Below the pieces are notes generated by a model. That model ran no database searches and was not told where the DNA came from. It was given only the letters and a program-made list of their open reading frames with translations. The position numbers and the translations under genes were made by a program. From a virus, in the IMG/VR virus record IMGVR_UViG_2149837019_000031, positions 1-22,103 of that record: a DNA stretch of 22,103 nt; one strand, given 5' to 3'. This document shows positions 1 through 22,103 of this stretch, piece by piece. Position 1 is the first letter of the stretch. The number at the start of each line of letters is the position of its first letter.

Positions 1-28
1 TAAAGAGGTTGATTATTGCGCGCGTAAA
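1..28. repeat. Terminal direct repeat or assembly overlap. Bases 1-28 equal 22076-22103, so the window is one closed 22,075-bp genome unit.
   Basis: taaagaggttgattattgcgcgcgtaaa is present at both window ends. The terL reading frame is continuous across the junction. Confidence 0.85.
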
Positions 29-14178: not shown

Positions 14179-14321
14179 TGAAAGAGAAGTTTAAAAAAGC
14201 CTTAGAGATATTAGCCCCCGTTATTTTAGTTTGCGTACTAATGGCGGGCGCTTATTTATTGTATAAAGGCGAGTATGAATTAGCGACTAAAATTTATATA
14301 TCTTTAGTGGAGCGGTTTTAA
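14178..14321 (+). CDS. Small membrane protein (47 aa), holin/antiholin-like. Below the ORF-track size cut-off.
   Basis: TAATG-coupled at both ends. TM segment ILAPVILVCVLMAGAYLL. Confidence 0.4.
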   Translation: MKEKFKKALEILAPVILVCVLMAGAYLLYKGEYELATKIYISLVERF

Positions 14322-14563
14322 TGTTAAATAAAGCTATTAGTTTGTTAGTTGTTTTGGTTGTTATATTTTTTATCGGCTTTTTTGCGGGTTTTTTGGCGCG
14401 TGGAAGCGAAATTAAACAAGAAACGATTAACGCACAAGAAAAAAAGATAAATAACACTACAGAGCTAAAAAAAGAGGCTTGTAAAGTAGATAAGGAGATT
14501 AAACGTTATGAAATGGGTTGTAATGATATTGTTAATTTTGATCTTAGTAAGTGCTTGCAGTAG
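14321..14563 (+). CDS. i-spanin (inner-membrane spanin subunit)
   Basis: N-terminal TM helix followed by a charged helical periplasmic domain. The o-spanin gene overlaps its 3' end in another frame. Confidence 0.55.
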   Translation: MLNKAISLLVVLVVIFFIGFFAGFLARGSEIKQETINAQEKKINNTTELKKEACKVDKEIKRYEMGCNDIVNFDLSKCLQ

Positions 14564-14693
14564 TTACCGCGGTAATTGTTGCCCTATTTTAGGATCTAAT
14601 GACGTAGTAGAAAATCCGCGTTATGTAAAGGATTTTATAAAAAATGCCAAGATGTATAAAATAGCGTTTGAAAAATGCGCTTGCAATGAATAA
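14508..14693 (+). CDS. o-spanin (outer-membrane lipoprotein spanin subunit)
   Basis: Signal peptide with lipobox LVSAC. Cys-rich mature part. It overlaps the i-spanin 3' end, the classic overlapped architecture. Confidence 0.55.
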   Translation: MKWVVMILLILILVSACSSYRGNCCPILGSNDVVENPRYVKDFIKNAKMYKIAFEKCACNE

Positions 14694-14756
14694 AAAACTA
14701 TCTTATATTATTTGGGTAATATGTTTAGTTTTTATCATATTTACAACTCCAAAAAG

Positions 14757-14786
14757 AAGCCCCCGCGTTATTGCGAGGGCTTTTTA
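14757..14786. terminator. Bidirectional Rho-independent terminator between the converging lysis operon and the leftward operon
   Basis: gcccccgcg / gcgagggc stem (8 bp with one mismatch) and loop gttatt. T-runs lie on both sides (aaaaagaa upstream, ttttt downstream). Confidence 0.6.
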
Positions 14787-14787
14787 T

Positions 14788-14910
14788 TTATTTTAACTTA
14801 GTCGCTATATAATTCGATAAACTACGATCGGCTTGTTTAGCTTCCTCTAAAAGTTTTTCGTAAAGTTCGATCGGTATAGTGATAGTTACGGTTTTAGTTG
14901 TTTTTGACAT
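14788..14910 (-). CDS. Ribbon-helix-helix (CopG/Arc/MetJ-type) DNA-binding protein, 40 aa. Below the ORF-track size cut-off.
   Basis: Translated by hand as MSKTTKTVTITIPIELYEKLLEEAKQADRSLSNYIATKLK. It shows a beta-strand followed by two helices. The AGGAG SD overlaps the TAG of the upstream gene. Confidence 0.65.
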   Translation of the reverse strand: MSKTTKTVTITIPIELYEKLLEEAKQADRSLSNYIATKLK

Positions 14911-14921
14911 TTTTTTAACTC

Positions 14922-15596
14922 CTATTTGATTGATACCCTAGCCTTTTGAAAGATTTTAAGGCCTTTTATTTCGCGCACGCCTTCGCGTATAGCTTGGCGT
15001 ACGGCTTTATCGTTTAAAATAATAAATTCTTGCGGTACGGCCGAAATATCCACAAGCTCGAAATCCCACACTTTAGAAACTATATTATTTTCGGTTGATA
15101 AATTAACAACCTCGGCCTTTGCGGTTTGGTTAATAAGTTGGTTTTGCTTATCCTCTAAAGAGCTAACCATAGCGCGGGCGGTTATCGGATCATAATTTAA
15201 GGCTTGTTTTTTAACTTCCTCTAACTCTAAGGCTTGTTTTAATGCTAACTCCTCGGCTTGGCGTTTTGCTTCGGCTTCGGCTTCGGCGCGTCTTTTAAGT
15301 TCGTCGTTTAAATATTTATTCATTTTTTCGCGTATAATGGCGTCGGCTTCGGCTAATAGCGCAAGAGGTATATTATACTTATCCTCAAGTTTTTTAATAC
15401 CGTCTTTTAATGGTTTAAGATCGGCCGTTTTATTATCTTTAATTGTCTTAGTATATTGTTTAAGTTCTTTAAGTTTTGCGCCCGCTTGCTCGTAGGTAAC
15501 GCTATCGGCAATAACTACAGCGTTTAACGTTTCTAACCACGTCCTAGCTTGTAATTCCATAGGGCTAACTTGATTATATATGCTAATTTGATCCAT
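14922..15596 (-). CDS. Coiled-coil protein, possibly Sipho_Gp157-like and recombination-module associated. It is the only sizeable minus-strand gene.
   Basis: 224 aa with an AGGAGT SD 6 nt before the ATG. Central AEAEAEAKRQAEELALKQ coiled coil. The C-terminal VWDFELVDISAVPQEFI...AIREG segment resembles the Gp157 family C-terminus, with low certainty. Confidence 0.35.
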   Translation of the reverse strand: MDQISIYNQVSPMELQARTWLETLNAVVIADSVTYEQAGAKLKELKQYTKTIKDNKTADLKPLKDGIKKLEDKYNIPLALLAEADAIIREKMNKYLNDELKRRAEAEAEAKRQAEELALKQALELEEVKKQALNYDPITARAMVSSLEDKQNQLINQTAKAEVVNLSTENNIVSKVWDFELVDISAVPQEFIILNDKAVRQAIREGVREIKGLKIFQKARVSIK

Positions 15597-15630
15597 ATTA
15601 TATACTCCTAAAAAAGTTAATTACGATTTG

Positions 15631-15659
15631 CTTATAACATACTTATTTTAATTAGTCAA
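15631..15659 (-). promoter_or_regulatory. Leftward sigma70-type promoter for the coiled-coil/RHH operon
   Basis: On the minus strand, TTGACT (plus 15654-15659), a 17-nt spacer, then TATAAG (plus 15631-15636). Confidence 0.45.
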
Positions 15660-15664
15660 TATTT

Positions 15665-15678
15665 AAAATAATTATTTT
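15665..15678. promoter_or_regulatory. Perfect 14-bp palindrome AAAATAATTATTTT between the divergent -35 boxes. Candidate operator or UP element.
   Basis: The sequence is self-complementary. It lies 6 nt from each of the two -35 hexamers (between them, in the UP-element zone of both). Confidence 0.35.
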
Positions 15679-15684
15679 TTAGGG

Positions 15685-15712
15685 TTGACATTTTAAATTT
15701 ATTGCATAAAGT
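15685..15712 (+). promoter_or_regulatory. Rightward promoter for the exonuclease operon
   Basis: TTGACA (15685-15690), a 16-nt spacer, then TAAAGT (15707-15712). Confidence 0.4.
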
Positions 15713-15735
15713 ATTTAGCGTAAGGAGTTAAAAAT

Positions 15736-16653
15736 ATGAAAGACGGAATATACTTTAATTTGCCCGCCGAGGAGTACCACGCACAAAAGCGCCTAACCTC
15801 TACGGGGATCAAAAATTTACTAATTAGCCCTACTACCTTTTGGTTTAATTCGGCTTTTAACCCACTAAGAGAAGAAAAAAAGACTAAAGCGTTAGACGAC
15901 GGCACGATATACCATAAAATTTTATTGGAAGGATCCGAGGCGCTACAGCGTGATTTTGTTGTAATGCCCGAAAGCATAGCGGAGTTAAATAAAAATACCT
16001 CTACCTTTAAGTTATGGAAGTCGGCGCAACCCGAAGGCGCTTTAATCGTTGATCGTAAATATTATAATAAGATCAAAACAAATATAGATTATCTTAACGA
16101 GTGGATCCTACCGCGTATTTTAACGGACGGCTACGCCGAAGTATCTATATTATGGACGGATAAAAACGGTATAAAAAAACAATGCCGATTTGACTACCTA
16201 AAGCGTAATATGTTTATCGATCTAAAGACCTTCGAAAAAAATAGCCCTTGCGATATTAAGACGCACGCGCAAAAACTTTTTTACGCTAATAAAACATTTA
16301 TACAATTACAATTTTATCGGAGTTGCGAGCCTTATATACAGGATCTACCCGTATTTGGCACGCCAGAGCAAGAGCAATTTATAAAAGAATTGGATTTACA
16401 AGGCCAAGCCGTTTTATACGTAGATCGAAACCTACCGCACAGCAGATTTTTTAAATACTCGGCCGAGGGTAGCCCTAACCTATGGCAATTAGGCGAGGAA
16501 AGTATAGCCAGAGCGGAGCGTTTATTTTTGGATAATTTAGCCAAGTTCGGCGAGCGTTGCGCTTGGTTAGATATGGAGCCTTTAGAAGAGTTTTTAGATG
16601 TAGACTTCCCACAATCATTTTTTAACCTATTGGAGATTAGAGATTATGAATAA
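15736..16653 (+). CDS. PD-(D/E)xK exonuclease, RecE-like (DUF3799/exonuclease VIII-type)
   Basis: N-terminal GIYFNLPAEEYHA and SP..F.. resemble DUF3799 proteins. The D...IDLKT core (RFDYLKRNMFIDLKTF) matches PD-(D/E)xK. TIR is AAGGAGTTAAAAATATG. Confidence 0.55.
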   Translation: MKDGIYFNLPAEEYHAQKRLTSTGIKNLLISPTTFWFNSAFNPLREEKKTKALDDGTIYHKILLEGSEALQRDFVVMPESIAELNKNTSTFKLWKSAQPEGALIVDRKYYNKIKTNIDYLNEWILPRILTDGYAEVSILWTDKNGIKKQCRFDYLKRNMFIDLKTFEKNSPCDIKTHAQKLFYANKTFIQLQFYRSCEPYIQDLPVFGTPEQEQFIKELDLQGQAVLYVDRNLPHSRFFKYSAEGSPNLWQLGEESIARAERLFLDNLAKFGERCAWLDMEPLEEFLDVDFPQSFFNLLEIRDYE

Positions 16654-16710
16654 ATTAGAAAAATATTTTTTAATAGTTGCATACGGATATTTATTTATTT
16701 GCTTTTTGCG

Positions 16711-16738
16711 TTGCTTTTTTGGATTTTAAACGTATAAT
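16711..16738 (+). promoter_or_regulatory. Promoter for the HNH-like/YopX operon
   Basis: TTGCTT (16711-16716), a 16-nt spacer, then consensus TATAAT (16733-16738). TTGCTTTTT is directly repeated just upstream. Confidence 0.45.
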
Positions 16739-16758
16739 ATTTTATCGGAGTTGGAAAT

Positions 16759-17121
16759 ATGAGTAAAAAACATTTAGAATTTATAGACGATTTAGAGTGC
16801 ATAGTTTGCAGATCTAAACACCCTACACACCACCACCTTTTAAGAGTGTCGCGCGAATATTTGCCAGTAAAAGAAGGCGAAGAGGATTTTTTATTACCTA
16901 AAATTAAATCTAAGGGTATGGCTACAAAATCGGACGATCGGTTTACCTTGCCATTATGCCCTAAATGCCACGCGGAAGCGCACGCCTACGGAAACGATAA
17001 GGCCTATTTTAAGAGTAAAGGAATCGACAAGCCCGAAGAAATGGCTTTAATGCTATACAAATTAACGGGTTTATATGATAAAGCTATGGATTTAATAAGG
17101 TGGTGGAGGCTTGGCCGATAA
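16759..17121 (+). CDS. HNH-like zinc-finger protein (DUF968-like)
   Basis: The CIVC...HHHH...LPLCPKCHAEAH arrangement gives a CxxC..H...CxxCH zinc-binding, HNH-like layout. TAATG-coupled to the next gene. Confidence 0.45.
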   Translation: MSKKHLEFIDDLECIVCRSKHPTHHHLLRVSREYLPVKEGEEDFLLPKIKSKGMATKSDDRFTLPLCPKCHAEAHAYGNDKAYFKSKGIDKPEEMALMLYKLTGLYDKAMDLIRWWRLGR

Positions 17122-17528
17122 TGTTATACCGAGTTGCAGAGTTTGAAAAAACACCTAACGGCCAAAAATTTAAGCGTTTTAAATATTGCGGTTATAAATT
17201 GCTATGTAGCGGGCAACTCTATAAAGGAAACGTTAAAGCAAATACAACCGATAAACGCAAGGCTAACTATTGCGAGCTTAATTTAGGCGTCGGCCGTCCA
17301 GATGTAAACGGCGTAAATATCTACGAGAAGGATTTAGTATATAACAAGCGCGAAAAATTAACGGGCGTAATTCGTTACGATCCGAAAAAAGGCGCTTTTA
17401 TTATGTACGTTAAAAACGGGATCGTTACTATACCCTACTCTTTTTTGGATTGCTACGACGTTAGCCTAGAGGTATTAGGTAACGAGTACGAGCATACGGC
17501 CAAAAACAAATTATTTAAACGATATTAA
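17121..17528 (+). CDS. YopX-family protein
   Basis: The IYEKDLVY and C-terminal VLGNEYEH motifs resemble YopX (IYEGD...GNIYENPEL). The ATG overlaps the upstream TAA. The ORF-track start at 17100 is GTG. Confidence 0.45.
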   Translation: MLYRVAEFEKTPNGQKFKRFKYCGYKLLCSGQLYKGNVKANTTDKRKANYCELNLGVGRPDVNGVNIYEKDLVYNKREKLTGVIRYDPKKGAFIMYVKNGIVTIPYSFLDCYDVSLEVLGNEYEHTAKNKLFKRY

Positions 17529-17558
17529 AAAAATAATCAAAAATAATTAAAATAAGTA

Positions 17559-17587
17559 TTGACTAATTAAAAAATGGGTGCTATATG
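17559..17587 (+). promoter_or_regulatory. Strong early promoter with extended -10
   Basis: TTGACT (17559-17564), a 17-nt spacer, then TGcTATATG. It is embedded in a 33-bp element that is also present inverted at 15646-15678. Confidence 0.45.
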
Positions 17588-17620
17588 TAATTTTGTAATA
17601 ACAAAAAAGGAGTTAAAAAT

Positions 17621-17944
17621 ATGGAAAAAACATTAACAGAAAAACTATTAGATCTATCTACAGAGTTACAAAGAAAATTAAACGAGTTAAGCGAGGAGCG
17701 CGCCGAGTATCTTTTAGAAAAAAACGAGGACGAGTATTTTATATGTTATGATAGCGATAGCGTAGACGTTGGCGTAGGTATGCTAACGGTAAGGAGCGAA
17801 AAAATATTAGATGAAGAGCGCGCCGAAGAGGACGCTAAAGAGGAAATTATAACCGAGGTAGCTAACCTAGAGGATAGTTTTTATTATTTGCTAGAGGATA
17901 ATAAAATTAGTTCATTATTGGCCGACGTTTTGAGGAGTTTGTAA
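17621..17944 (+). CDS. Highly acidic small protein (107 aa, about 30 D/E against about 12 K/R). Candidate DNA-mimic or anti-restriction type protein.
   Basis: First gene after the strong promoter. Its TIR is identical to that of the exonuclease gene. Composition was counted by hand. Confidence 0.5.
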   Translation: MEKTLTEKLLDLSTELQRKLNELSEERAEYLLEKNEDEYFICYDSDSVDVGVGMLTVRSEKILDEERAEEDAKEEIITEVANLEDSFYYLLEDNKISSLLADVLRSL

Positions 17945-18930: not shown

Positions 18931-19133
18931 TTAATCGTATGGCCGAACGCGAGGAGCGTATTATAAAAATGCGCTCCGAAGGAAAAAAGGCAACCATTAA
19001 ATTAACAGAGTTGTATTATCAACAAAAAATAGATATGTATAAACGTTTAAAAGAGGAGTTAAAATTATGCAAGACGCAGAGTTTACCGAATAAAACGAAG
19101 AAGCCCCCGCCTCTAAGGGCGAGCTTGTTTTAG
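18912..19133 (+). CDS. Small coiled-coil hypothetical protein (73 aa)
   Basis: GGGGG SD 7 nt upstream. The N-terminal 50 aa look protein-like, but the C-terminal 20 aa are low in complexity and overlap the 19067 start region. Confidence 0.3.
   Translation: MDLQKLVNRMAEREERIIKMRSEGKKATIKLTELYYQQKIDMYKRLKEELKLCKTQSLPNKTKKPPPLRASLF
19067..19093 (+). CDS. 8-codon ORF (MQDAEFTE) with a perfect TIR, terminated by TAA. The same frame then stays open through 19435.
   Basis: GAGGAGTTAAAATTATG at 19051-19069 matches the conserved TIR used by the other early genes. TAA at 19091-19093. Confidence 0.35.
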   Translation: MQDAEFTE

Positions 19134-20035: not shown

Positions 20036-20060
20036 AGGGGCGCTAACCCGCCCCTTTTTT
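20036..20060 (+). terminator. Rho-independent terminator
   Basis: AGGGGCG-ctaacc-CGCCCCT forms a perfect 7-bp GC stem. It is followed by TTTTT. Confidence 0.7.
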
Positions 20061-20072
20061 GGAGATCATAAT

Positions 20073-20357
20073 ATGAAAAATAGAAACCTTAACGCGGGCG
20101 ACGATTGGAAAACGCCGAGCGATTTATACGAAAAACTAAACCAAGAATTTAATTTTGATTTTGATCCAGATATTAACACTATGCCACGTTGCGACATAGA
20201 GGCCTTAAAAAGCGAAATAAAGCATTTAAAGGAGTTGCTTAAAGAGTGTAAACCTTACATAAGTTATAGTGTTAATAAAAAGAAATATCTTGGATTTACA
20301 CCACCAGAGGCGAATATTTTAACCAAAATAGACAACGCAATAGGAGAAAATAATTGA
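20073..20357 (+). CDS. ORF fusing an N-terminal fragment of a phage Dam-type N6-adenine methyltransferase motif to unrelated sequence (94 aa)
   Basis: DDWKTPSDLYEKLNQEFNFDFD matches the (D/E)EWxTPxxLFxxLxxEFxF N-terminal signature of the phage Dam family. No (D/N)PPY catalytic motif follows. GGAG SD 8 nt upstream. Confidence 0.45.
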   Translation: MKNRNLNAGDDWKTPSDLYEKLNQEFNFDFDPDINTMPRCDIEALKSEIKHLKELLKECKPYISYSVNKKKYLGFTPPEANILTKIDNAIGENN

Positions 20358-20602
20358 TTAAATCACAAGACGATTTAAACCAAGACGACGGAGTAGGCCG
20401 TACAATGACCTTATTAAAGGCTATAGAGCAATTAGAAAAAACAGAGGTAGAGCTTGAGAAGGTGGAAAAGCAATTAAAAATAGCAGTTGAGGCTTTAGAA
20501 GATATAGGTTTTTGTAAGACCTCAATATATCAAAACAGCCCTTTTAAATTAGTTTCTTGGGCAATAGACGCAATCAGTAAAATAAAGGAGTTAGATAAAT
20601 GA
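20354..20602 (+). CDS. Small coiled-coil hypothetical protein. TTG start, with an alternative ATG at 20405.
   Basis: AGGAG 7 nt upstream of TTG 20354, which overlaps the upstream TGA (TTGA). ATGA overlap at the 3' end. Confidence 0.35.
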   Translation: MIKSQDDLNQDDGVGRTMTLLKAIEQLEKTEVELEKVEKQLKIAVEALEDIGFCKTSIYQNSPFKLVSWAIDAISKIKELDK

Positions 20603-20832
20603 TCGAAGTAATATCTACATTTTTTGAAAGTTTAATAGAAACTTTTATAATGAGTTGCTTAGTTATAATATGCTTAATTTTAGGATTGTTAGGCTTTATG
20701 ATCTACCCTATTAAGAAAGCAAGGCTATTTTTGGGTAGGCAATTATACCGAGTAGCCGACACAATGGACTATTATTTAACAGAAACGCTAGTAAAAGACT
20801 ACGAAGAGGATAACAAAAATACGGGGGCTTAA
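20599..20832 (+). CDS. Small membrane protein (77 aa)
   Basis: AAGGAG with an 8-nt spacer. Hydrophobic segment CLVIICLILGLLGFMIY. Confidence 0.45.
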   Translation: MIEVISTFFESLIETFIMSCLVIICLILGLLGFMIYPIKKARLFLGRQLYRVADTMDYYLTETLVKDYEEDNKNTGA

Positions 20833-20848
20833 ACAACCCCCTTTTTTT
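20823..20848 (+). terminator. Rho-independent terminator
   Basis: GGGGG-cttaaacaa-CCCCC followed by T7. Confidence 0.5.
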
Positions 20849-20895
20849 ATGATTGATCTTTTAAAACAAATACTATTTAATAAAGTAAAACGGGC

Positions 20896-20919
20896 GTTTT
20901 AGTTTTTTGTTTTAGTTTT
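20896..20919 (+). repeat. Tandem direct repeat, GTTTTAGTTTT x2 with a 13-bp period, immediately upstream of terS
   Basis: Read directly from the sequence as gttttagtttt tt gttttagtttt. Confidence 0.5.
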
Positions 20920-20930
20920 GGTTAAATAAA

Positions 20931-21329: not shown

Positions 21330-22103
21330 ATGGGCTTCGATTTTAATTTTAGCTTTTTTGGTGCTACGGGATCTACAAATTTATCTTTTTTGGATTTTGT
21401 AGAGCGTAGCGGGTACCCGAAGCCCTACCCTAAACAAATAGAGATGTACGATTTTGCTTTTAGTGGAGAAAATACCCGTATGATCCTAGGCGCCCGCGGT
21501 TATGGTAAGACGGACTATATAACAATTTTAGGCCTTGCCTATTCTATTTATAAGGATCCTAACTATACCGCTATATTGATAACCAAGGAAAGCGAGCGCG
21601 GTAAGGAGTTAGTAGCCGAGATAAAAGAGATATTAAATAAATTTTCGGTAAGATTTAAGAGTAAGGCCAAAAAAAAGATAATTGTAGAAGGTTGTACGGG
21701 TAAAGAGCCTAACCTTATAGCGCTAACGATCAGATCTAAAGGTTTACGCGGACGCCACCCTAAAAAAATCATAATGGACGATCCAATTACACCAGAGGAC
21801 GATAGCCAAGCCGAACGCCGTAGGGCTAAAAAGTGCTACGAGGAGCTATTAAAGCTAACTCAAAACGTACTTATCATAGGGCAACCCGTACACAAGTTAG
21901 ATCTTTACCAAGAATTAAGGACTAAAATTTTAACCCTTTGTGTAATCTACGGAGATATACCCGAATTAGACAAGGATTTAAACGCCTTGCGAGCTTCGGG
22001 CGTAAGTGAGGCCAGTATATCGGCTTCGTATTTTCTAAAGATCCTAGACGATAACACGTTACCACTTGCCAGTATTAAAGAGGTTGATTATTGCGCGCGT
22101 AAA
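21330..22103 (+). CDS. terL: Terminase large subunit, N-terminal ATPase part. It continues at position 29 of the window.
   Basis: ATG at 21330 directly after the terS TAA. Walker A-like LGARGYGKT and IIMDDP motifs. The ORF runs off the window end without a stop. It is absent from the ORF track only because no stop lies inside the window. Confidence 0.8.
   Translation, partial: MGFDFNFSFFGATGSTNLSFLDFVERSGYPKPYPKQIEMYDFAFSGENTRMILGARGYGKTDYITILGLAYSIYKDPNYTAILITKESERGKELVAEIKEILNKFSVRFKSKAKKKIIVEGCTGKEPNLIALTIRSKGLRGRHPKKIIMDDPITPEDDSQAERRRAKKCYEELLKLTQNVLIIGQPVHKLDLYQELRTKILTLCVIYGDIPELDKDLNALRASGVSEASISASYFLKILDDNTLPLASIKEVDYCARK
22076..22103. repeat. Second copy of the 28-nt terminal repeat
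   Basis: Identical to positions 1-28. Confidence 0.85.

What the first reader, a model, noticed from the sequence alone, without database searches (positions are those of the whole stretch)
15646..17572. A 33-bp promoter/operator element present twice, once on each strand, plus a perfect 14-bp palindrome between divergent promoters
Read on the minus strand, plus-strand positions 15678 down to 15646 give AAAATAATTATTTTAAATATTGACTAATTAAAA. Plus strand 17540-17572 gives AAAATAATTAAAATAAGTATTGACTAATTAAAA. That is 29 of 33 bases identical, including the -35 TTGACT and 8 nt downstream. One copy drives the leftward coiled-coil/RHH operon and the other drives the acidic-protein early operon. The 15665-15678 part is the self-complementary AAAATAATTATTTT, which sits between the -35 boxes of the divergent P-left and P-exonuclease promoters. 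This suggests a shared regulator acting on both transcription units, with the 40-aa RHH protein the obvious candidate, or a duplicated early promoter cassette.
Basis: seen in the sequence. Interest (0 to 1): 0.55.

Follow-up and report, generated by a model that had tools for sequence, protein, structure and literature searches.

The report
Duplicated early promoter in gut phage
The repeated 33-bp sequence is the upstream half of a strong bacterial-type promoter that this small gut phage uses at the head of two early gene blocks; this is ordinary phage design, and there is only a weak hint that the phage's own 40-residue DNA-binding protein also reads it.

Summary
The 14-bp palindrome is also there, but it is not beyond chance and is not conserved.

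Each copy has AT-rich A-tracts phased about every 10 bp, then TTGACT, then an A-tract spacer. A TGn-extended -10 (TATAAG / TATATG) follows 17 nt after the -35, then a start near G of GTAAT(T)AAC, AGGAGT and ATG.

About 30 related 21-25 kb (some 34 kb) gut-metagenome phages keep the same synteny. They have back-to-back divergent promoters and one to three further rightward copies of the cassette. A-tracts sit about 7.5, 18 and 28 nt upstream of the -35 and 12.5 nt into the spacer in all clades, matching UP-element positions.

In relatives with about 75% DNA identity the element is kept at 30-32 of 33. Strain differences and hybrid promoters begin exactly at its right edge.

Best reading: paralogous host-RNAP early promoter cassettes with a UP-like upstream half. 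Main rival: they also carry operators for the conserved CopG/Arc-like RHH protein. A 16-mer unit in all three promoters and one RHH/promoter allele co-segregation hint at this, but a cross-clade correlation test found nothing.

This is a new member of a known kind, of modest interest.

The parts
15646..15678 (-). Copy 1 of the 33-bp element: the upstream half of P-left (AT-rich upstream region, -35 and first 8 nt of the spacer)
   Evidence: conserved at 30/33 in L037, which is about 75% identical in DNA
15654..15659 (-). P-left -35 hexamer TTGACT
15631..15639 (-). P-left extended -10, TGtTATAAG, 17 nt after the -35. The last base is G, not the consensus T.
15616..15624 (-). Predicted start region GTAATTAAC. 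The G at 15624 lies 7 nt after the -10. The motif recurs after many promoters of the family.
   Evidence: the start site is inferred, not mapped
14922..15596 (-). First gene of the leftward operon: a 224-aa helical protein of unknown function, conserved in all relatives
   Evidence: (phrog_10477)
14788..14910 (-). Second gene of the leftward operon: a 40-aa ribbon-helix-helix protein (CopG/Arc-like), the candidate regulator
   Evidence: RHH_5, 24.6 bits against a cutoff of 26; Arc-like repressor phrog_582; AvtR 2e-6, CopG 0.006
14757..14782 (-). Terminator-like hairpin that ends the leftward operon
15665..15678 (.). Perfect 14-bp palindrome AAAATAATTATTTT, centred about 47.5 nt upstream of both predicted divergent starts. 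It overlaps (15665-15674) a 13-nt match (AATTATTTTAAAT, 15662-15674) to the E. coli rrnB P1 UP element.
15685..15712 (+). P-exo core promoter: TTGACA, 16 nt, TAAAGT. It drives the RecE-like exonuclease (15736-16653), DUF968 and YopX genes.
17540..17572 (+). Copy 2 of the 33-bp element: the upstream half of P-down
   Evidence: conserved at 32/33 in L037 and L046
17527..17558 (+). Three roughly 10-bp A-tract units upstream of the P-down -35 (AAAAAAATAATC / AAAAATAATT / AAAATAAGTA)
17559..17564 (+). P-down -35 hexamer TTGACT
17579..17587 (+). P-down extended -10, TGcTATATG, 17 nt after the -35
17621..17944 (+). First gene downstream of P-down: an acidic 107-aa protein with no family match
17544..17559 (+). 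16-mer unit TAATTAAAATAAGTAT, abutting the P-down -35
15639..15654 (-). Identical 16-mer unit inside the P-left spacer. This is an off-register match, 20 nt out of phase with the 33-bp alignment.
15660..15675 (+). 14/16 copy of the 16-mer unit (TATTTAAAATAATTAT) upstream of P-exo, one helical turn further from the -35
15722..15738 (+). 17-nt ribosome-binding block AAGGAGTTAAAAATATG, identical at 17607-17623
   Evidence: D1

Best explanation
The two 33-bp copies are the upstream halves of two paralogous, strong, host-RNA-polymerase (sigma-70-type) early promoters.

Each cassette contains, in order:
- A-tracts phased about every 10 bp, lying roughly -63 to -38 from the predicted start. This is the position and composition of a UP element or intrinsically bent DNA.
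- The -35 hexamer TTGACT.
- A spacer that opens with an A-tract.
- A TGn-extended -10, 17 nt after the -35.
- An inferred start at or near the G of GTAAT(T)AAC.
- AGGAGT and ATG.

P-left fires leftward into the 224-aa/RHH operon. P-down fires rightward into the acidic-protein block and boosts transcription arriving from P-exo. P-left and P-exo stand back to back and share one AT-rich upstream stretch, which is where the palindrome sits.

The copies resemble each other because the phage lineage reuses one optimised cassette at the head of each early unit. Selection on promoter strength, and probably recombination between copies, keeps them alike. No dedicated operator is needed to explain the repeat.

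Shown: sequence, geometry, conservation and family-wide architecture. Inferred: promoter activity, start sites and alpha-CTD/UP function.
For: 1. Geometry. Both copies have TTGACT, 17 nt, TGnTATA(A/T)G, about 35 nt, AGGAGT and ATG. P-left, P-down and P-exo are the only intergenic TTGAC(A/T)-spacer-TAnnnn sites of the genome that have an AT-rich upstream region.

2. Family architecture.
- About 30 related phage contigs keep the order lysis genes, then leftward [~222 aa + RHH], then divergent promoters, then exo, DUF968 and later genes.
- Near-identical cassette pairs occur in some genomes but not all. P-left against P-down scores 0.88 in the window, 0.88 in L006 and 0.91 in L007/L015. P-down against P-down2 scores 0.94 in L023 and L026.
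- Between clades the mean is 0.56, sd 0.10, maximum 0.82.

3. A-tract phasing. In 20 promoters from all clades, runs of at least four A occupy fixed positions: about 7.5, 18 and 28 nt upstream of the -35 and 12.5 nt into the spacer. Occupancy reaches 0.95 at the first peak and falls to 0 or close to it between peaks. The bases between tracts differ among clades. From the start these positions are about -43, -53, -63 and -23. The first two match the proximal and distal UP subsites (PMC2613000; PMC4390567).

4. UP resemblance. P-left's upstream region holds 13 nt (AATTATTTTAAAT) identical to the rrnB P1 UP element AGAAAATTATTTTAAATTTCCTCA (PMC3035448).

5. Purifying selection. L037 is about 75% identical in DNA, yet its P-down element is 32/33 and its P-left element 30/33. 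Window and L004 differ by about 4% overall but show no substitution in the 139-nt divergent region.

6. Conservation across clades. The P-down upstream unit TAAT(T)AAAAAAAGTATTGAC is kept in clades whose exonuclease is about 40% identical and whose RHH is 38-47% identical to the window's. This points to a conserved reader such as host RNAP.

7. Copy number varies from 2 to 3 per genome, always at the head of a gene block.
Against: - No transcript data exist. Everything about activity is inferred.
- Both -10 hexamers end in G, where sigma-70 promoters normally need T. The TGn motif may compensate.
- The host is unknown. Relatives are binned with Gastranaerophilales, Alphaproteobacteria and Acutalibacteraceae MAGs, so E. 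coli UP rules are an extrapolation.
- The rrnB-like 13-mer sits about 5 bp closer to the -35 than in rrnB P1.
- Exact-sequence conservation of 30-32/33 is stronger than a generic AT-rich UP element would need.
- In L038 all three copies carry the same two A-to-T changes. This requires either gene conversion or a sequence-specific reader.
- A perfect 16-mer is shared off-register between P-left and P-down, with a third copy at P-exo. This looks like a discrete binding unit.
Confidence: 0.6

Rival explanations
1. The promoters carry an operator. The repeated sequence would be a phased array of binding sites for a phage-encoded regulator, most plausibly the 40-aa RHH protein made from P-left.

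The candidate sites are TAATTA-type boxes at about 15 nt upstream and 5 nt downstream of the -35 start, and at the transcription start. These fall within the 16-mer unit TAWTTAAAATAAKTAT.

Binding inside the P-left spacer would autorepress P-left. The same unit lies upstream of the P-down and P-exo -35 boxes, where binding could modulate those promoters. Together this would give a timed shut-off of early transcription, as P22 Arc and pMV158 CopG do.
For: - An RHH gene is the last gene of the leftward operon in every relative. Its profile matches AvtR (2e-6) and CopG (0.006), RHH_5 and an Arc-like repressor PHROG.
- The 16-mer unit is perfect in the P-left spacer and upstream of P-down, and 14/16 upstream of P-exo: 3 hits against 0.48 expected, reached by 0 of 100 shuffles.
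- Five of the genome's 12 TAATTA hexamers lie in 231 nt of promoter DNA, at the same offsets in both copies.
- In L038 both TAATTA boxes are TATTTA in all three cassette copies, and its RHH beta-strand has T changed to C.
- L040 has a window-like background with two separate L038-like patches. One covers the RHH gene and the other the divergent promoters.
- Exact sequence is conserved beyond what AT-richness requires.
Against: - There is no binding evidence.
- Across clades, P-down identity does not track RHH identity (Spearman 0.14, p = 0.29).
- The co-variation rests on one allele type (K).
- The box 5 nt after the -35 start in P-left is TATTTA in L037 and L046 although their RHH beta-strand is unchanged. 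The box at element position 14 varies among genomes that share the window-type RHH.
- The upstream unit is nearly the same in clades with very different RHH proteins.
- Boxes 20 bp apart are wider than the 7-11 bp spacing of adjacent RHH dimers in known operators (from established knowledge of Arc, MetJ, omega and CopG).
- The L040 mosaic can also arise from neutral patch conversion.
Confidence: 0.28
2. The element would be a recombination joint. Its main evolutionary reason to exist would be as a short block of homology at module boundaries. The phage's own RecE-like system or the host's would use it to swap or delete early-gene modules, and gene conversion would keep the copies identical.
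For: - Window and L004/L002 are identical through ...TTGACTAATTAAAA and diverge from the next base. L004 then carries an extra ORF of about 50 aa plus a hairpin.
- L045 has a hybrid P-down: a window-type spacer joined to an L041-type -10 and leader.
- The P-left/P-down similarity ends at the same base.
- Copy number differs among close relatives.
- A RecE-like exonuclease is encoded next to the element.
Against: - Joints inside conserved promoters are expected as a by-product wherever homology exists. They do not explain the promoter geometry or the family-wide A-tract phasing.
- P-left and P-down are inverted relative to each other, so a crossover would invert the exonuclease module. That arrangement is never seen in about 30 relatives.
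Confidence: 0.07
3. The element would be a replication origin or iteron region. The tandem 10-bp AAAATAAT-type repeats would bind an initiator rather than serve transcription.
For: - Three tandem units of about 10 bp lie upstream of P-down.
- No replication initiator, helicase or polymerase gene was recognised in the window, so replication control is unexplained.
Against: - Every copy sits in exact promoter register in front of a gene.
- Copies occur on both strands and 2-3 times per genome.
- Cumulative GC skew shows no turning point that is not explained by the leftward genes.
Confidence: 0.03
4. The two copies would be the inverted repeats of an invertible 1.9-kb segment (exonuclease, DUF968, YopX) that acts as a DNA switch. 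Alternatively, the match would be a chance product of AT-rich low-complexity sequence.
For: The repeats are inverted and flank a discrete gene block.
Against: - No recombinase or invertase is encoded. The 132-aa protein has only a helix-turn-helix motif.
- The orientation is the same in all relatives.
- Chance is excluded, and by the conservation in relatives.
Confidence: 0.02

Closest known systems
Sigma-70 promoters with a UP element (E. coli rrnB P1) and promoters activated by phased upstream A-tracts
   Same: - The region from about -38 to -63 is AT-rich, with A-tracts centred near -43 and -53.
- The -35 is near consensus, the spacer is 17 bp and there is a TGn-extended -10.
- Thirteen nt are identical to the rrnB P1 UP core (PMC2613000; PMC4390567; PMC3035448).
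   Different: - The host is unknown and is not E. coli.
- The rrnB-like block lies about 5 bp closer to the -35.
- The last base of the -10 is G.
- A further phased A-tract lies inside the spacer.
- Exact sequence is conserved more tightly than UP elements usually are.
Phage P22 immI region (Arc and Mnt RHH repressors acting on the divergent Pant and Pmnt promoters)
   Same: - A small RHH protein is encoded in an operon fired from one of two closely apposed divergent promoters of a phage.
- Such a protein could shut off its own and the opposing promoter late in infection. This comparison rests on established knowledge of P22.
   Different: - Arc is the first gene of its operon, whereas here the RHH gene is the last.
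- No antirepressor homologue is present.
- The P22 operators are 21-bp dyads between the -35 and -10. Here the candidate boxes are AT-rich, about 10-20 bp apart, and also occur at a promoter 1.9 kb away.
- Binding is untested.
Plasmid pMV158 CopG and pSM19035 omega (RHH repressors that bind several successive sites, or several promoters)
   Same: - The RHH profile matches CopG.
- The cassette offers AT-rich boxes on successive helical turns overlapping the -35.
- The same boxes occur at three promoters, in the way omega controls several promoters.
   Different: - The sequence match is weak (E = 0.006).
- The system is a phage, not a plasmid copy-control or partition system.
- There is no evidence of binding.
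- The box spacing differs from omega's 7-bp heptads.
Dulem virus 29 (PP511380.1) and Bdellovibrio phage phi1402 (small 'dwarf' myoviruses)
   Same: - The genomes are about 22-24 kb.
- The large terminase is 58% identical to that of Dulem virus 29 and 38% identical to that of phi1402.
- Dulem virus 29 shares the whole gene order, including the leftward RHH operon and repeated AAAAAATAATATTGAC promoters.
   Different: - The exonuclease is only 37% identical to that of Dulem virus 29.
- phi1402 has a different early region.
- No promoter analysis of these phages was found in the searched literature.

Membership tests
Sigma-70-type promoter | A -35 hexamer close to TTGACA | tested here: met
   TTGACT (5/6) in both copies, at 15654-15659(-) and 17559-17564(+)
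Sigma-70-type promoter | A spacer of 17 +/- 1 bp before a -10 hexamer close to TATAAT, with A at position 2 and T at position 6 | tested here: inconclusive
   Both spacers are 17 bp. The -10 hexamers are TATAAG (5/6) and TATATG (4/6). Both lack the final T, so the consensus scan did not list them. Both have the TGn extension. Relatives show TATAAT, TATATA or TATAAG at the same place.
Sigma-70-type promoter | Transcription starts 6-8 nt after the -10 | not testable with these tools
   No transcript data are available. The predicted starts are 15624 and 17594-17595.
UP element | AT-rich DNA at -40 to -60 with proximal (about -43) and distal (about -53) A/T tracts | tested here: met
   A-run occupancy peaks about 7.5 and 18 nt upstream of the -35 in 20 promoters of the family. 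The positions follow PMC2613000. There is a 13-nt match to the rrnB P1 UP element.
UP element | Bound by the RNAP alpha C-terminal domain, and stimulates transcription without any other factor | not testable with these tools
   Needs footprinting or reporter assays with the unknown host's polymerase.
RHH repressor with its operator (Arc/Mnt, CopG, omega type) | A ribbon-helix-helix DNA-binding protein is encoded in the unit | tested here: met
   RHH_5 at 2e-5, scoring 24.6 bits, just under the cutoff of 26. A profile of 10 orthologues hits AvtR at 2e-6 and CopG at 0.006.
RHH repressor with its operator (Arc/Mnt, CopG, omega type) | The operator is made of repeated or dyad subsites overlapping the core promoter | tested here: inconclusive
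   TAATTA boxes and a 16-mer unit overlap the -35 and spacer. They cannot be told apart from phased A-tract promoter structure. The 14-bp palindrome is within chance and not conserved.
RHH repressor with its operator (Arc/Mnt, CopG, omega type) | Protein and site co-vary, or binding is demonstrated | tested here: inconclusive
   No correlation across clades. One allele type co-segregates, in L038 and L040. Counter-examples occur in L037, L046, L043 and L045.
Invertible DNA segment | A site-specific recombinase is encoded, and both orientations are found | tested here: not met
   No recombinase domain was found. All relatives show one orientation.

The most novel reading that the evidence does not exclude
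The 16-bp unit TAWTTAAAATAAKTAT would be an operator code read by the phage's 40-aa RHH protein.

- The unit lies inside the spacer of P-left, where binding would autorepress.
- It lies just upstream of the -35 of P-down and one helical turn further upstream at P-exo, where binding could activate or tune.
- One tiny protein would then time the whole early programme of a 22-kb phage.
- The W, M and K promoter/RHH allele types would be specificity variants, comparable to the immunity types of lambdoid phages, in a phage that has no integrase.
Probability: 0.2. Interest if true: 0.55.

Novelty: new member of a known kind. Interest (0 to 1): 0.3.

Why it matters
If the main reading holds, the finding gives a usable promoter model for an uncultured family of very small gut myoviruses. 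The model is phased A-tracts, TTGAC(A/T), an A-tract spacer, TGnTATAxx and a GTAAT(T)AAC start. It marks their early transcription units, helps annotation, and predicts that their unknown host uses a sigma-70-like polymerase with UP-type upstream contacts.

It also shows promoter cassettes acting as the seams of genome mosaicism in these phages.

If the rival holds, the phage would offer a minimal, easily testable RHH circuit controlling three promoters. Neither outcome would overturn current ideas.

Tried and rejected
- Near-identical DNA in the phage collection: none.
- 224-aa protein patterns in IMG/VR: no relatives.
- The 19-mer AARTATTGACTAATTAAAA in IMG/VR: only the phage's own contig plus six unrelated chance hits with no tblastx similarity. 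The element is therefore specific to this lineage and not a widespread mobile motif.
- Rfam and tRNA scans of the window: nothing, so there is no known RNA element here.
The single-sequence model had pLDDT 53 and was not used for a fold search. Sequence searches of PDB and Pfam were empty.
- Correlation of RHH identity with promoter identity across clades: not significant.
- RHH homologue search for more beta-strand variants: only 10 clusters, and the only cysteine-bearing (C-type) allele among them is L038's own (P0041).
- Invertible-segment idea: rejected, because there is no recombinase and the orientation is constant.
- The palindrome as an operator: set aside, because it is within chance and not conserved.
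- phi1402 was checked for the same early region and does not have it.
Full report
**Observation**

The reverse complement of 15646-15678 is AAAATAATTATTTTAAATATTGACTAATTAAAA, and 17540-17572 is AAAATAATTAAAATAAGTATTGACTAATTAAAA. They match at 29 of 33.

- A degenerate 33-mer finds only these two sites, and none in 100 shuffles.
- The 14-nt core alone, allowing up to 2 mismatches, is not significant.
- The pair is the longest inverted repeat in the window: 52 nt at 79%, 15628-15679 against 17539-17590.
- Among the 764 AT-rich 33-mers of the genome, no other pair reaches 25/33.
- The 14-bp palindrome at 15665-15678 is perfect. However, the genome has 2 such palindromes against 3.6 expected, and P is about 0.10 within its own 139-nt AT-rich region.

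**Context**

Bases 1-28 repeat at 22076-22103, so the window is a complete circular contig of 22,075 bp. The layout is as follows.

| Region | Strand | Content |
|---|---|---|
| to about 14.7 kb | + | Structural and lysis genes, including a Hydrolase_2 endolysin and an overlapping spanin-like pair |
| 14922-15596 | - | 224-aa helical protein |
| 14788-14910 | - | 40-aa RHH protein, ended by a hairpin at 14757-14782 |
| 15736-17528 | + | RecE-like exonuclease, DUF968 and YopX genes |
| after copy 2 | + | Acidic 107-aa protein and small genes, up to a MazG-like gene and a terminator at 20036-20055 |

No integrase, recombinase or replication gene was recognised. The large terminase is 58% identical to that of Dulem virus 29 and 38% identical to that of Bdellovibrio phage phi1402. 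The phage is therefore a small 'dwarf' myovirus.

**Anatomy of the two copies**

| Feature | P-left (minus strand) | P-down (plus strand) |
|---|---|---|
| -35 | TTGACT, 15659-15654 | TTGACT, 17559-17564 |
| Spacer | 17 nt | 17 nt |
| Extended -10 | TGtTATAAG, 15639-15631 | TGcTATATG, 17579-17587 |
| Predicted start region | GTAATTAAC, from 15624 | GTAATAAC, from 17595 |
| Ribosome-binding site and start codon | AGGAGT, ATG at 15596 | AGGAGT, ATG at 17621 |

- P-exo (TTGACA 15685, 16 nt, TAAAGT) stands back to back with P-left.
- The palindrome lies about 47.5 nt upstream of both predicted starts.
- These three are the only intergenic sites of this kind in the genome.
- The region ahead of the late genes (20842-20930) has no such promoter.

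**Relatives**

- Searches with an exonuclease profile returned about 30 contigs of mostly 21-25 kb (some 34 kb) from gut metagenomes and four MAG bins.
- Homologues of the 224-aa protein gave closer relatives, 73-96% identical.
- All keep the same order: lysis genes, then leftward [~222 aa + RHH], then divergent promoters, then the exonuclease.
- The host is unknown. The bins name Gastranaerophilales twice, Alphaproteobacteria once and Acutalibacteraceae once.

**Family promoter architecture**

In every clade the exonuclease is preceded by back-to-back -35 boxes 11-34 bp apart. One to three more rightward promoters follow downstream.

In the 33-nt register, the identities are:

| Comparison | Genome(s) | Identity |
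|---|---|---|
| P-left vs P-down | window | 0.88 |
| P-left vs P-down | L006 | 0.88 |
| P-left vs P-down | L007, L015 | 0.91 |
| P-down vs P-down2 | L023, L026 | 0.94 |
| Same comparisons | L003, L019, L025, L028 | 0.45-0.55 |
| Between clades | all pairs | mean 0.56, sd 0.10, max 0.82 |

The strongest common feature is positional. Runs of at least four A peak about 7.5, 18 and 28 nt upstream of the -35 and 12.5 nt into the spacer. Occupancy reaches 0.95 at the first peak and falls to 0 or close to it between peaks. The bases between tracts differ among clades.

Counted from the start, these positions are about -43, -53, -63 and -23. The first two are the proximal and distal UP subsites (PMC2613000; PMC4390567). 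P-left's upstream DNA also contains 13 nt identical to the rrnB P1 UP element AGAAAATTATTTTAAATTTCCTCA (PMC3035448), but about 5 bp closer to the -35.

**Conservation within the genus**

| Type | Genomes | P-left | P-down |
|---|---|---|---|
| W | window, L004, L041, L045, L043 | AAAATAATTATTTTAAATA-TTGACT | AAAATAATTAAAATAA(GTA/TTG)-TTGACT-AATTAAAA |
| M | L037, L046 (about 75% DNA identity) | 30/33 to the window | 32/33 to the window, with a third copy present |
| K | L038 | AAAATATTTA upstream and TTGACTATTT | the same two changes, in both P-down copies |

- In L038 the two A-to-T changes are present in all three copies, which is a concerted change.
- The perfect palindrome is lost in L038 and L040. 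It is replaced by TAATTAAATTAATTA in L037.

**Seams**

- Window and L004/L002 are identical up to ...TTGACTAATTAAAA and differ from the next base. L004 then has another -10 and leader, an extra ORF of about 50 aa and a hairpin.
- L045 has a hybrid P-down.
- The right edge of the 33-bp element is therefore a real boundary. It is the end of the P-left/P-down similarity, the end of strain identity and a crossover point.

**The RHH question**

- The protein is a genuine RHH and is conserved everywhere.
- A 16-mer, TAATTAAAATAAGTAT, is perfect in the P-left spacer (15639-15654, minus strand) and upstream of P-down (17544-17559). It is 14/16 upstream of P-exo (15660-15675). That is 3 hits against 0.48 expected.
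- Five of the genome's 12 TAATTA hexamers lie in these promoters, at matching offsets.
- L038 and L040 have a T-to-C change in the RHH beta-strand together with TATTTA boxes.
- L040 has a window-like background with two separate L038-like patches, one over the RHH gene and one over the promoters.

Against this:

- There is no correlation across clades.
- Box variation occurs without any RHH change in L037, L046, L043 and L045.
- The unit is conserved in clades whose RHH proteins are about 40% identical.
- No further beta-strand variants are available to test.

**Verdict**

The repeat is real and functional, and its function is that of a promoter. I put 0.6 on paralogous host-RNAP early promoter cassettes with a UP-like upstream half. 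I put about 0.28 on these cassettes also being RHH operators, and small weights on a recombination-joint, origin or switch role.

The palindrome carries no independent weight. This is a new member of a known kind, of modest interest.

Noticed in passing
window 1-28 and 22076-22103: A 28-bp exact terminal overlap shows that the window is a complete circular contig of 22,075 bp. It is a very small myovirus: the large terminase is 58% identical to Dulem virus 29 and 38% to Bdellovibrio phage phi1402.
   Followed up: partly
window 15722-15738 and 17607-17623 (weaker copies at 19053 and 20585): The 17-nt ribosome-binding block AAGGAGTTAAAAATATG is identical in front of the exonuclease and the acidic-protein genes. 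The two genes therefore share a translation start context as well as promoter features.
   Followed up: no
window 15616-15624(-) and 17595-17602(+); also many promoters in L005, L006, L026, L027, L028: A conserved motif, (T)GTAAT(T)AAC, or GTTAAC/GTTCAAC in other clades, lies 6-10 nt after the -10 at the predicted transcript start. It could be an initial-transcribed-sequence signal or another binding site.
   Followed up: partly
L004 5290-5500 (also L002, L041) against window 17573-17606: Sister strains carry an extra ORF of about 50-87 aa plus a GC-rich hairpin between P-down and the acidic gene. The junction falls inside the promoter spacer. L045 has a hybrid promoter.
   Followed up: partly
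L040 (window-equivalent 14474-14999 and 15629-15786): This is a mosaic genome. It has a window-like background with two separate L038-like patches, one over the RHH gene and one over the divergent promoters.
   Followed up: partly
window 14922-15596(-): The 224-aa helical protein is conserved in every relative but has no Pfam or PDB match. PHROG 10477 labels it 'exonuclease', and one orthologue gives a weak Mu Gam hit (E = 0.018). The single-sequence AlphaFold model was poor (pLDDT 53).
   Followed up: partly
window 14321-14563 and 14508-14693: Two overlapping small genes resemble an i-spanin/o-spanin pair; the second begins with a lipoprotein-like signal (LILILVSAC). This points to a diderm host. 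Relatives are binned with Gastranaerophilales, Alphaproteobacteria and Acutalibacteraceae MAGs.
   Followed up: no
window 20823-20930: The late (terminase and structural) block follows a terminator. It has no TTGAC-type promoter and no clear Shine-Dalgarno sequence before the 132-aa HTH protein. Late transcription probably needs read-through or a phage factor.
   Followed up: no
window 20073-20357: This 94-aa ORF matches only the first 30 residues or so of Dam methyltransferases (Pfam Dam, E = 0.0017). Relative L038 has a 113-aa Dam-family gene at a similar place, so this may be a remnant.
   Followed up: no
window 20624-20651: The best consensus promoter match of the scan (TTGAAA, 16 nt, TATAAT; 11/12) lies inside the 77-aa ORF at 20599-20832, about 200 nt before the terminator.
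   Followed up: no
L037, L038, L046: These relatives have three copies of the cassette. The extra copy lies after the MazG-like gene. At that position the window has only a bidirectional terminator (20036-20055), directly followed by the next gene.
   Followed up: partly
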